The notes under the pieces were generated by a model that saw only the letters and a program-made list of their open reading frames with translations, did not search any database and was not told the DNA's origin. This document shows positions 11,492 through 12,288 of a stretch of DNA of 25,904 nucleotides, one piece after another. This DNA is from a virus (Duplodnaviria > Heunggongvirae > Uroviricota > Caudoviricetes): IMG/VR virus record IMGVR_UViG_2724679293_000033, positions 1-25,904 of that record; one strand, 5' to 3'. Both the position numbers and the translations under genes were made by a program. Every line of letters begins with the position of its first letter. The first letter of the stretch is position 1.

Positions 11492-11908
11492 ATGAATAAA
11501 AACGACCTTGAAGCATTATCTGACACTAGGCTTAATGAGGCCAAATGCTTGCTTGATCATGGCTTTTTTCATGGTGCATATTATCTTTGTGGGTATGCAG
11601 TTGAATGTGCATTGAAGGCCTGTATTGCCAAGTCATTTTTACAACATGAGTTTCCAAACAAAAAAGTCGTAAATGATTCATATACTCATGATTTGTCGCA
11701 ACTTCTCAAAATTGCCAACTTACATCAAATTTTGATTGCTGACGCAAAAAATGATGTTTCGTTGGAGATTAACTGGTCGGTCGTTAAAGACTGGAGCGAG
11801 CAATTTAGATACGACAATAACATAAGTAAAGCTATGGCCGAACAATTGTTTGATGCTGTAGGTGACCAAAATTCTGGAGTTTTGAAATGGGTAAAAGCAC
11901 ACTGGTAA
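11492..11908 (+). CDS. HEPN-like domain protein (138 aa)
   Basis: Helical signature GFFHGAYYLCGYAVECALKACIAK and downstream THDLSQLL resemble HEPN domains; canonical Rx4-6H arginine not evident; AT-rich; weak RBS. Confidence 0.55.
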   Translation: MNKNDLEALSDTRLNEAKCLLDHGFFHGAYYLCGYAVECALKACIAKSFLQHEFPNKKVVNDSYTHDLSQLLKIANLHQILIADAKNDVSLEINWSVVKDWSEQFRYDNNISKAMAEQLFDAVGDQNSGVLKWVKAHW

Positions 11909-12288
11909 TCGGCAGAGAGTTGACAAAAGATATGGAATTCTCAGGTCAATTTTTGTTAAAAAAACTCAAGTTACAGAATTTAACTATTGATGCTGCAATG
12001 TGGTTTTATTACCCAGATCTATCTTGGAGATATATTTTAGTTATCAGTGACTTCTCAGAACGTGGGCCGGCAGAAATATATAGAAAAATCAGTGAGATAA
12101 ATAGAAATAGCATATCAAAAAAGTATAAGCCGATACCATTAGAAGCAATTGAGGCTAAGGGGGATTCAGCTTTTGTTTATAAAATGTTAAAAGGATTTGC
12201 TAGAGTCAACGATGGTAAAGTTCGCGTTTCTAATTCTATGGTAAATGGTTTAGAAATCGTTGACTGTCTGATCTATGAGTTAAAATAA
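11887..12288 (+). CDS. Uncharacterised 133-aa protein, overlapping partner of the HEPN-like gene
   Basis: Start overlaps the upstream gene by 22 nt; GGAG ~7 nt upstream; no family recognised (no GS...DxD nucleotidyltransferase motif seen). Confidence 0.55.
   Translation: MGKSTLVIGRELTKDMEFSGQFLLKKLKLQNLTIDAAMWFYYPDLSWRYILVISDFSERGPAEIYRKISEINRNSISKKYKPIPLEAIEAKGDSAFVYKMLKGFARVNDGKVRVSNSMVNGLEIVDCLIYELK

What the first reader, a model, noticed from the sequence alone, without database searches (positions are those of the whole stretch)
11492..12288. Overlapping HEPN-like/unknown gene pair: candidate toxin-antitoxin or abortive-infection module
Seen: a 138-aa ORF whose N-terminal half (GFFHGAYYLCGYAVECALKACIAK ... 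THDLSQLL) looks like a HEPN helical bundle, but without an obvious Rx4-6H catalytic arginine; its 3' end overlaps by 22 nt the start of a 133-aa ORF with no recognisable motifs (no minimal-nucleotidyltransferase GS/DxD signature). Both are AT-rich and sit in a cassette bounded by direct repeats. Established: HEPN proteins are frequent RNase toxins in TA/Abi systems, usually paired with MNT or other antitoxins. Inference: a non-canonical HEPN pairing, with the partner gene downstream rather than upstream and of unknown fold.
Basis: partly seen in the sequence, partly recalled or inferred. Interest (0 to 1): 0.72.

Follow-up and report, generated by a model that had tools for sequence, protein, structure and literature searches.

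The report
Prophage HEPN gene with obligate partner
An E. coli prophage carries a small two-gene cassette, a non-canonical HEPN protein plus an uncharacterised partner whose gene always overlaps it by 22 bases. The same pair recurs across bacterial and archaeal phyla and is most likely an untested toxin/neutraliser or anti-phage module.

Summary

New here: the two genes are an obligate pair. All 80 HEPN-anchored loci from different species, and all 43 complete viral contigs, carry an ORF2 relative immediately downstream. In 70 of the 80 loci the overlap is the same 22 nt.

HEPN is the more conserved partner (49% versus 34% mean identity), and the two co-vary (r = 0.70). Neighbouring genes are otherwise unrelated. 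In prophages the pair sits in the lambdoid nin-region accessory hotspot.

Best reading: a mobile, translationally coupled effector/neutraliser module (TA or abortive infection), related to the biochemically unstudied class II HEPN/MNT pairs but with a different, downstream partner. Function is inferred, not shown. I rate it a new variant of a known kind, of moderate interest.

The parts
11193..11491 (+). AT-rich intergenic leader of the module. It holds a candidate -10 hexamer TATAAT at 11453-11458, shared with the Klebsiella prophage copy.
   Evidence: Sequence and upstream alignment. The consensus promoter scan called no promoter here and no operator-like palindrome was found, so the promoter is inferred only.
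11492..11908 (+). ORF1: a 138-aa HEPN protein of the PF05168 / HEPN-T ('class II') type. Invariant residues are R13, E38, K42, H66, W101, R106 and Y107. It has no Rx4-6H motif.
   Evidence: RefSeq annotates it as WP_001038620.1, 'HEPN domain-containing protein'.
11876..11879 (+). GGAG Shine-Dalgarno-like element inside ORF1, 7 nt upstream of the ORF2 ATG.
   Evidence: Sequence. An SD-like motif lies at -18..-4 of the ORF2 start in 56 of the 79 HEPN-anchored loci with a resolved ORF2 start.
11887..11908 (+). The 22-nt coding overlap. The ORF2 ATG is built from the K132-W133 codons of ORF1. This is a candidate translational-coupling junction.
   Evidence: The same 22-nt overlap occurs in 70 of 80 genomic loci (start codon ATG 61, GTG 6, TTG 3). 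A 7-nt variant that uses the terminal Trp codon occurs in 5. A start codon sits at -22 in all 43 complete viral loci.
11887..12288 (+). ORF2: the 133-aa obligate partner, from an unannotated family. Conserved residues are G20, W39, W47, G60, Y65, R113, D126 and Y130. The predicted alpha/beta fold is H14-29, E34-42, E46-53, H56-74, E88-91, H96-101, then a hairpin E112-132.
   Evidence: RefSeq annotates it as WP_000520500.1, 'hypothetical protein'.
12328..12489 (+). Right copy (D1b) of the 162-nt direct repeat. This is the conserved segment upstream of ninB, with a putative promoter (TTGATT ... CATAAT, 12328-12356) and a hairpin at 12359-12389.
   Evidence: hairpin -23.2 kcal/mol, z -3.25. The homologous phage 82 segment is annotated with -35, -10 and a 'possible regulator-binding site'.
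10006..10167 (+). Left copy (D1a) of the direct repeat. It is a partial duplicate of the pre-ninB segment, and the left arm of its hairpin is degenerate.
   Evidence: RefSeq annotates a truncated small ORF here.
10333..11192 (+). Neighbouring cargo inside the same repeat-bounded cassette: isrK and C4 antisense-RNA elements (10333-10532) and an antirepressor-like gene (P22AR C-terminal domain, 10584-11192). It is probably a separate acquisition, because its GC is about 0.47 against 0.37 for the pair.

Best explanation
The locus is a self-contained, horizontally mobile two-gene operon carried as accessory cargo in the nin region of a DLP12-like lambdoid prophage at tRNA-Arg in E. coli.

ORF1 is a small HEPN protein of the PF05168 ('class II', HEPN-T) type. 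I take it to be the effector, acting on RNA or a nucleotide ligand through a non-canonical conserved site (R13, E38, K42, H66, E103, R106, Y107).

ORF2 is its cognate partner. Its translation is coupled to ORF1 through the conserved 22-nt overlap and an internal GGAG. It binds the HEPN protein and keeps it inactive by stoichiometric binding, not by AMPylation, until a trigger removes or overrides it. Candidate triggers are phage infection, host shut-off or loss of the element. The result would be growth arrest: abortive infection, superinfection exclusion or element addiction.

Shown here:
- HEPN identity.
- Obligate pairing and conserved overlap.
- Purifying selection: dN/dS well below 1 for ORF2; for HEPN dS was saturated and the case rests on conservation across phyla.
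- Co-variation of the two proteins.
- Mobility.
- Absence of NTase motifs in ORF2.

Inferred:
- Which protein is the toxin.
- Physical binding between the two.
- The trigger.
- The substrate.
For: - **Obligate pair.** An ORF2 relative lies immediately downstream on the same strand in 80/80 HEPN-anchored species genomes across many phyla, including two archaea. The same holds in 43/43 complete IMG/VR contigs. It also holds in every hand-checked context: Chloroflexi, Bacteroidota, Woeseiaceae, Acinetobacter and Klebsiella.
- **Overlap.** 22 nt in 70 of 80 loci, with a start codon selected at that position; SD-like motif in 56 of 79.
- **Co-variation.** Pairwise identities of the two proteins correlate (Pearson r = 0.70). 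HEPN is the more conserved in 98.5% of genome pairs (49% vs 34%), the usual pattern for an enzyme or toxin and its faster-evolving neutraliser.
- **Invariant residues.** HEPN has many invariant polar residues; ORF2's invariant residues are mostly Trp, Gly and Tyr.
- **Both are real coding genes.** dN/dS is 0.06-0.16 for ORF2; for HEPN dS was saturated (dN 0.21-0.42), and both proteins keep their length and sequence across phyla.
- **Mobility.** The 148 nearest neighbours carry 242 different Pfam families. The pair is inserted between housekeeping genes, next to PIN toxins (4) and Septu PtuA (3). It lies in a TA island with PIN, HicB and Fic, and beside BrnT/BrnA on a 13.9-kb Acinetobacter plasmid.
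- **Prophage position.** In prophages the neighbours are lambda P, NinB, NinG, RusA and Q. This is the accessory region where the proven HEPN defence HepS sits in Gifsy-1 (PMC13043305).
- **Relation to a defence candidate.** All 34 HEPN relatives tested match the PADLOC candidate PDC-M28A (best E 7.5e-12).
- **ORF2 as a docking domain.** In a Deinococcus plasmid the ORF2-like domain is the N-terminus of a 460-aa protein, still overlapping the HEPN gene by 22 nt.
Against: - No experiment shows toxicity, neutralisation or defence for this family.
- PF05168-type HEPNs lack RX4H and have never been shown to be RNases or toxins (PMC7641770).
- The gene order, HEPN first, is the reverse of most type II TA and MNT-HEPN pairs.
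- No DNA-binding domain or operator palindrome suggests TA-style autoregulation.
- The pair is rare on plasmids (5 of 72,556) and in isolated phages (1 of 50,697).
- Only a few per cent of neighbours are known defence or TA genes.
- Some copies sit stably inside housekeeping operons, for example between purM and purH in several Chloroflexi.
- No strong promoter was detected.
Confidence: 0.5

Rival explanations
1. Reversed roles. ORF2 is the effector or toxin, and the HEPN protein is the non-catalytic regulator, sensor or antitoxin. This fits the usual antitoxin-first gene order.
For: - HEPN is the upstream gene. In most type II dyads and MNT-HEPN pairs the upstream gene is the antitoxin (PMC3710099).
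- This HEPN lacks Rx4-6H.
- Class II HEPNs have no shown nuclease activity (PMC7641770).
- ORF2 keeps conserved polar residues R113, D126, Y65 and Y130.
- An ORF2-like domain can be fused to a larger C-terminal module.
Against: - HEPN is the more conserved protein in 98.5% of comparisons and carries the denser set of invariant polar residues.
- ORF2 has no match to any enzyme family.
- ORF2's invariant residues are mostly structural (W, G, Y).
Confidence: 0.15
2. Not a conflict system. The pair is a two-subunit cellular complex, for example a nucleotide- or RNA-binding regulator. It spreads horizontally but is neither toxic nor antiviral.
For: - Many copies lie between housekeeping genes such as SecDF, PurM/PurH, EF-P and HypD.
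- Little enrichment for defence genes.
- Rare on plasmids and in phages.
Against: - Patchy distribution: 316 hits among about 100,000 species genomes.
- Random insertion sites.
- Presence in TA islands, in prophage accessory hotspots and on a small plasmid beside BrnTA.
- Low GC relative to the host prophage. Together these are typical of selfish or defence cargo, not core functions.
Confidence: 0.2
3. A cryptic HEPN/MNT (type VII-like) system. ORF2 would be an active minimal nucleotidyltransferase that AMPylates the conserved Tyr107 of the HEPN protein.
For: - HEPN has an invariant R106-Y107, like the conserved Tyr of class II HEPNs (PMC7641770).
Against: - The GSx10DxD-type motif is absent: 5 of 179 family members at random positions, against 117 of 120 MNT controls.
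- hhalign of the ORF2 profile against a 37-sequence MNT profile gives 0.1% probability.
- No member matches PF01909.
- Foldseek against PDB finds nothing significant; best E is 0.08 and TM is below 0.4.
- The gene order is reversed.
Confidence: 0.03
4. Ordinary phage regulatory or structural genes of the nin region, or spurious ORFs in AT-rich DNA.
For: Location in the nin region of a lambdoid prophage. Both proteins fall in PHROG families of unknown function.
Against: - Most homologous pairs are in non-phage chromosomal contexts across distant phyla and archaea.
- Only 1 of 50,697 phage records carries the pair.
- Purifying selection on ORF2 (dN/dS 0.06-0.16) and HEPN conservation across phyla.
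- High-confidence folds.
Confidence: 0.02

Closest known systems
Class II HEPN/MNT modules (PF05168 HEPN + PF01909 MNT; Makarova/Koonin, and Yao et al. 2020, PMC7641770)
   Same: Same HEPN class: PF05168, no RX4H, and a conserved Tyr next to an invariant Arg. It is a small two-gene module that is mobile and scattered. The closest solved structures are HEPN-T proteins (1ufb, 2hsb, 1wol).
   Different: The partner is not an MNT: no PF01909 match, no GSx10DxD, and hhalign probability 0.1%. The partner gene is downstream, with a fixed 22-nt overlap, instead of upstream. Class II modules themselves have no biochemistry to borrow from.
Class I HepT/MntA type VII toxin-antitoxin (SO_3166/SO_3165; Aphanizomenon HEPN/MNT)
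RnlA-RnlB / LsoA-LsoB (E. coli HEPN toxin with a downstream protein antitoxin; anti-T4 abortive infection)
   Same: HEPN-first, antitoxin-second order. The antitoxin is a small protein that acts by binding. The setting is E. coli mobile elements and anti-phage function.
   Different: RnlA and LsoA are large multi-domain proteins with a canonical Rx4-6H. ORF2 shows no sequence or fold match to RnlB (none).
HepS (Gifsy-1) and Tha (S. aureus): prophage-encoded HEPN abortive-infection proteins (PMC13043305, PMC11087260)
   Same: HEPN cargo gene in the accessory region of a lambdoid-type prophage, between the replication genes and the nin/Q genes. Plausible role in protecting the lysogen.
PADLOC candidate PDC-M28 (guilt-by-embedding; bioRxiv 10.1101/2024.01.29.577857)
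   Same: ORF1 and all 34 relatives tested match the PDC-M28A profile (E 1.8e-7 to 7.5e-12). That profile is also 138 positions long.
   Different: PDC-M28 is a three-gene cassette. ORF2 and 64 of its relatives match no PADLOC model. PDC-M28 is itself untested.

Membership tests
HEPN superfamily, PF05168 / HEPN-T | Significant match to the Pfam HEPN model | tested here: met
   27.8 bits against a gathering cut-off of 22, residues 12-118. Many homologues carry precomputed PF05168.
HEPN superfamily, PF05168 / HEPN-T | Four-helix up-and-down HEPN fold | tested here: met
Catalytic HEPN RNases | Rx4-6H motif at the start of the last core helix | tested here: not met
   R106 is invariant, but no His or Asp is conserved 4-6 residues later. 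The invariant His is H66, elsewhere in the protein. This matches the HEPN-T note in PMC3710099, Table 1.
Class I HepT/MntA (type VII TA) | RX4HXY in the toxin, and an adjacent upstream MNT with GSX10DXD | tested here: not met
   Neither motif is present. The partner is downstream.
Class II HEPN/MNT | PF05168 HEPN with a conserved Tyr and no RX4H | tested here: met
   (Y107 in 77/77). Definition taken from PMC7641770.
Class II HEPN/MNT | Adjacent PF01909 minimal nucleotidyltransferase with GSX10DXD | tested here: not met
Pol-beta-like nucleotidyltransferase fold (ORF2) | Alpha-beta-turn-beta-X-beta core detectable by structure comparison | tested here: inconclusive
Type II toxin-antitoxin module (generic) | Compact, co-oriented two-gene operon that is mobile and patchily distributed | tested here: met
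Type II toxin-antitoxin module (generic) | One product is toxic, the other neutralises it by binding; the antitoxin is labile | not testable with these tools
   Needs expression and pull-down experiments.
Type II toxin-antitoxin module (generic) | DNA-binding antitoxin and an operator for autoregulation | tested here: inconclusive
   No HTH, RHH or AbrB domain in either protein. No palindrome in 11190-11500. This feature is not universal among TA systems.
RnlAB / LsoAB | Homology of the partner to RnlB/LsoB, and a multi-domain RnlA-type toxin | tested here: not met
   No PDB sequence or fold match of ORF2 to RnlB. ORF1 is a single 138-aa domain.
PADLOC PDC-M28 | All genes of the three-gene cassette present | tested here: not met
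   Only the A profile matches, weakly. ORF2 matches nothing. The cassette has three families.
Anti-phage defence system (generic) | Enrichment next to known defence genes, or a measured protection phenotype | tested here: inconclusive
   PtuA next to 3, and PIN next to 4, of 148 nearest neighbours. Position in a prophage accessory hotspot. No phenotype data.

The most novel reading that the evidence does not exclude
The pair defines a previously undescribed, widespread HEPN system. A class II-type HEPN with a non-canonical active site (R13, E38, K42, H66, R106, Y107) is controlled by a catalytically dead, highly diverged descendant of the minimal nucleotidyltransferase. That descendant moved downstream and switched from enzymatic (AMPylation) to purely stoichiometric neutralisation, enforced by a 22-nt translational-coupling overlap conserved from E. 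coli prophages to archaea. Because this copy is native to E. coli, it would give the first tractable handle on what PF05168 HEPN proteins do.
Probability: 0.25. Interest if true: 0.72.

Novelty: new variant of a known kind. Interest (0 to 1): 0.55.

Why it matters
HEPN/MNT-type modules are predicted to be among the most abundant toxin-antitoxin systems. The PF05168 ('class II') half of that world has no biochemistry, and nobody knows whether these HEPNs are nucleases at all (PMC7641770).

This cassette is a compact E. coli-native representative of that class, with a new and strictly co-inherited partner family. That family has about 800 clusters at 50% identity and no Pfam, NCBIfam or PADLOC entry.

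If the pair is a toxin/neutraliser or abortive-infection system:
- It adds a new family to the defence/TA catalogue.
- It would give a possible function to a conserved cargo gene pair of prophages in pathogenic E. coli; the listed carriers include O26:H11 and O111:H11 strains.
- It offers an easy experimental entry point, through toxicity, pull-down and phage-challenge assays in K-12.

The invariant 22-nt overlap is also an unusually clean case of a conserved translational-coupling junction.

Tried and rejected
- **Sequence searches of ORF2.** Pfam, NCBIfam and PADLOC gave no match. PHROGs matched only phrog_5760, of unknown function.
- **Family-wide scans of ORF2.** 64 diverse ORF2 relatives against Pfam and PADLOC: no shared family.
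- **PDB sequence searches.** Single sequences and profiles for both proteins gave only chance hits, such as pyruvate oxidase at E 0.06.
- **Foldseek of the ORF2 model against PDB.** Nothing significant. The afdb50 library was unavailable.
- **MNT homology.** I built MNT profiles from PDB sequences (A5) and from 37 diverse homologues (A6). hhalign against the ORF2 profile gave 0.3% and 0.1% probability, so I rejected MNT membership.
- **PDC-M28.** Rejected as the identity of the system: it is a three-gene cassette and ORF2 is unmatched.
- **Literature.** Searches for the RefSeq accessions, for 'PDC-M28' and for 'class II HEPN' found nothing specific.
- **Locus search with the ORF2 alignment.** The search for related loci failed because the alignment is too divergent. 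I used the HEPN alignment instead.
- **Regulatory elements.** No Rfam RNA lies inside or flanking the pair itself. No operator-like palindrome lies upstream. The consensus scan found no strong promoter or terminator for the pair.
- **Fused HEPN-ORF2 proteins.** None seen among the listed homologues. The only fusion found joins ORF2 to DUF3800.

Full report
**What is at the coordinates**

The window is a DLP12-like lambdoid prophage integrated next to tRNA-Arg. It is 100% identical over the tested 1.3 kb to E. coli strain 7_33_46A. The full segment occurs in 190 of 5,426 complete E. coli genomes; those listed include O26:H11 and O111:H11 strains.

ORF1 (11492-11908, +, 138 aa) and ORF2 (11887-12288, +, 133 aa) exist as described and overlap by 22 nt. 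They lie between an antirepressor-like gene (P22AR C-terminal domain, 10584-11192) and the ninB/ybcN-ninE-ybcO-rusA-ylcG-quuD block. GC falls to 0.37 across the pair, against about 0.47-0.52 in the flanks.

A 162-nt direct repeat (81% identity, with a near-identical core) lies at 10006-10167 and 12328-12489. The right copy is the conserved pre-ninB segment, which phage 82 annotates with a putative promoter, an inverted repeat and orf33. The repeat brackets a 2.3-kb cassette. That cassette also contains isrK and C4 antisense-RNA elements and the antirepressor-like gene, so the repeats do not delimit the pair alone.

**ORF1 is a HEPN protein of the non-canonical class**

- Pfam PF05168 scores 27.8 bits against a cut-off of 22.
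- An AlphaFold2 model built on 34 diverse homologues has pLDDT 93.
- Across 77 orthologues, R13, Y30, Y31, G34, Y35, E38, P55, H66, W101, R106 and Y107 are invariant, and K42, N94, W95 and E103 nearly so. No His or Asp is conserved 4-6 residues after R106.

This matches the 'HEPN-T (PF05168)' row of Anantharaman et al. (PMC3710099), which notes a conserved His elsewhere in the protein. It also matches the 'class II HEPN/MNT' toxin class of Yao et al. (PMC7641770). That class has no RX4H, has a conserved Tyr, and is explicitly stated to have no biochemical study. So 'HEPN' is established, but 'RNase toxin' is not.

**ORF2 belongs to a large, unannotated family**

- Word-based search finds only 32 close relatives.
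- A profile search of 1.84 billion cluster representatives finds 798 at E ≤ 1e-3 and 120 at E ≤ 1e-10. Nearly all of the 150 listed are single-domain proteins of about 120-160 aa.
- None of 64 diverse members matches any Pfam or PADLOC family in common. NCBIfam has nothing for ORF2, and the PHROG it falls in has unknown function.
- The AF2 model has pLDDT 89. It shows helix 14-29, a beta-hairpin at 34-53, helices at 56-74, strand 88-91, helix 96-101 and a C-terminal hairpin at 112-132.

That is suggestive, because MNT is the classical HEPN partner. Every independent test failed, however:
- Foldseek against PDB gives no significant match.
- hhalign of the family profile against a 37-sequence MNT profile gives 0.1% probability.
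- The catalytic G[SG]...[DE]x[DE] signature occurs in 5 of 179 family members at random positions, against 117 of 120 MNT controls.

I therefore do not file ORF2 as an MNT. A dead, highly diverged NTase-fold derivative remains possible.

**The main new result: the two genes are an obligate, translationally coupled pair**

I searched one genome for each of about 100,000 species, using HEPN peptide patterns only. This found 316 relatives.

- In the best 80 loci, an ORF2-family gene (HMM E-values from 2e-7, for one truncated copy, down to 4e-51) lies immediately downstream on the same strand in 80 of 80. These loci span Gammaproteobacteria, Desulfobacterota, Chloroflexi, Chlorobi, Acidobacteria, Planctomycetes, Nitrospirae, Cyanobacteria, Bacteroidota, and Aenigmatarchaeota and ANME-2 archaea.
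- The overlap is exactly 22 nt in 70 loci (start codon ATG 61, GTG 6, TTG 3). It is 7 nt in 5, where the ATG is built on the terminal Trp codon instead.
- The same holds in 43 of 43 complete IMG/VR contigs, down to 37% HEPN identity.
- It also holds in each context I inspected by hand.
- In the window, a GGAG (11876-11879) sits 7 nt before the ORF2 ATG. SD-like motifs occur in 56 of the 79 loci with a resolved start.
- Pairwise identities of the two proteins are correlated (Pearson r = 0.70). HEPN is the more conserved in 98.5% of genome pairs, at 49% versus 34% mean identity.
- ORF2 has dN/dS of 0.06-0.16 where dS could be estimated. For HEPN, dS was saturated in every comparison (dN 0.21-0.42), so its coding status rests on conservation across phyla.

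**Context**

The pair has no conserved third gene. The 148 nearest neighbours carry 242 different Pfam families, including SecDF, PurM/PurH, EF-P and HypD. PIN toxins appear 4 times and Septu PtuA 3 times.

- In a Woeseiaceae MAG the pair lies among PIN, HicB and Fic genes.
- On the 13.9-kb Acinetobacter plasmid pAJ4131 it lies beside BrnT/BrnA.
- In prophage-derived contigs the neighbours are lambda P, NinB, NinG, RusA, YbcO, DUF1367, Q and P22_AR_C. That is the accessory region between the replication genes and Q.
- HepS, a proven HEPN abortive-infection protein, was found at the comparable position in Gifsy-1 (PMC13043305).
- The pair is nevertheless rare in isolated phages (1 of 50,697, Klebsiella phage Kp4864-1) and on plasmids (5 of 72,556).
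- ORF1 and all 34 relatives tested match the PADLOC candidate PDC-M28A (E 1.8e-7 to 7.5e-12). PDC-M28 is a three-gene cassette, and ORF2 matches nothing, so this is a related HEPN and not the same system.
- In a Deinococcus plasmid the downstream gene, still overlapping by 22 nt, encodes an ORF2-like N-terminal domain (E 5e-25). It is fused to about 335 further residues that marginally match DUF3800. This suggests that the ORF2 domain is the HEPN-docking part.

**How it most likely works**

The shown facts are strict co-inheritance, fixed coupling geometry, co-variation, mobility, insertion at random sites and in prophage cargo hotspots, an enzyme-like conservation pattern in HEPN, and a faster-evolving partner without catalytic motifs. 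The best-supported model from these is a two-component effector/neutraliser module.

- HEPN acts as the effector, on RNA or a nucleotide ligand.
- ORF2 acts as a stoichiometric inhibitor or sensor, made by coupled translation.
- In this prophage it would serve abortive infection, superinfection exclusion or element retention.

I give this 0.5. The roles could be reversed (0.15), since HEPN is upstream and lacks the RNase motif. The pair could be a non-toxic cellular complex (0.2). An active AMPylating MNT (0.03) and ordinary phage genes (0.02) are effectively excluded. Toxicity, binding, trigger and substrate are all inferred, and none can be tested with these tools.

**Novelty and score**

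The kind of system, a HEPN-based two-gene mobile module, is known. This combination is not described in the libraries or papers I could search: a class II-type HEPN, an unannotated downstream partner family, and an invariant 22-nt overlap. The partner is absent from Pfam, NCBIfam and PADLOC.

I rate it a new variant of a known kind, with interest 0.55. It is a solid, well-delimited candidate in a tractable host that could open the unstudied PF05168 HEPN class. It has no phenotype yet and only modest defence-island association.

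Noticed in passing
window 10333-10532 (+): Rfam matches directly upstream of the antirepressor-like gene: c4-a1b1 targets (10333-10385, 40.6 bits, below the gathering score), isrK Hfq-binding RNA (10348-10420, 64.1 bits) and C4 antisense RNA (10445-10532, 82.5 bits). This looks like a P1/P7 immI-like or Gifsy-1 isrK-anrP-like antirepressor control unit sitting in a lambdoid prophage.
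   Followed up: partly
window 10006-10167 and 12328-12489: The 162-nt direct repeat is a duplication of the conserved pre-ninB segment. In phage 82 that segment carries a putative promoter, an inverted repeat called a 'possible regulator-binding site', and orf33. The right copy keeps a perfect 11-bp hairpin (12359-12389, -23.2 kcal/mol, z -3.25). The left copy has lost one arm. This suggests cargo insertion by recombination at this segment.
   Followed up: partly
L007, L054, L059, L063, L094 (genomic loci): A minority of pairs use a 7-nt overlap (ATGGTAA/ATGGTAG), in which the ORF2 ATG is built on the terminal Trp codon of HEPN instead of on Trp133. Both start positions exploit a conserved TGG codon.
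   Followed up: partly
L144 2495-4263 (Deinococcus sp. AB2017081 plasmid): The HEPN relative is followed, with the same 22-nt overlap, by a 460-aa protein. Residues 4-125 are ORF2-like (E 5e-25) and residues 156-376 marginally match DUF3800 (21.8 bits, cut-off 21). This is a domain-fusion lead to the partner's function.
   Followed up: partly
L143 2459-3432 (Rhizobium ruizarguesonis plasmid pRlX2): A more distant pair: HEPN-like, 145 aa, at 27% identity, with a 189-aa partner that still matches the ORF2 HMM (E 1.6e-9) but carries an insertion. The overlap is 34 nt. It lies near thermonuclease and DUF2971 genes.
   Followed up: no
L004, L005, L006, L024, L030 (Chloroflexi MAGs): In L004-L006 the pair is inserted between purM (AIRS) and purH (AICARFT/IMPCHase) on the same strand; L006 is cut off before the downstream gene. 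L024 and L030 appear to share this context, judging by matching neighbour coordinates and AIRS hits. It seems stably resident inside a purine-biosynthesis gene cluster.
   Followed up: no
window about 8685-9279 (L001 9486-10080): RefSeq annotates the prophage replication protein P gene as frameshifted. The prophage may therefore be replication-defective (cryptic), like DLP12.
   Followed up: no
window about 14572-15654 (-) and 17445-17738 (-): Other cargo genes in the late region of the same prophage: an OmpC-family porin gene downstream of the Q antiterminator, next to a low-GC stretch (0.32 at 15501-16000), and an iss/bor serum-survival lipoprotein gene after the lysis cassette.
   Followed up: no
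L009-L011 (Acinetobacter): Here the pair sits at a prophage end, next to umuDC-like genes (Peptidase_S24 + IMS), an AbiH-family gene in one variant, an SRAP gene and an integrase. In one variant an IS (rve) element is inserted just upstream.
   Followed up: no
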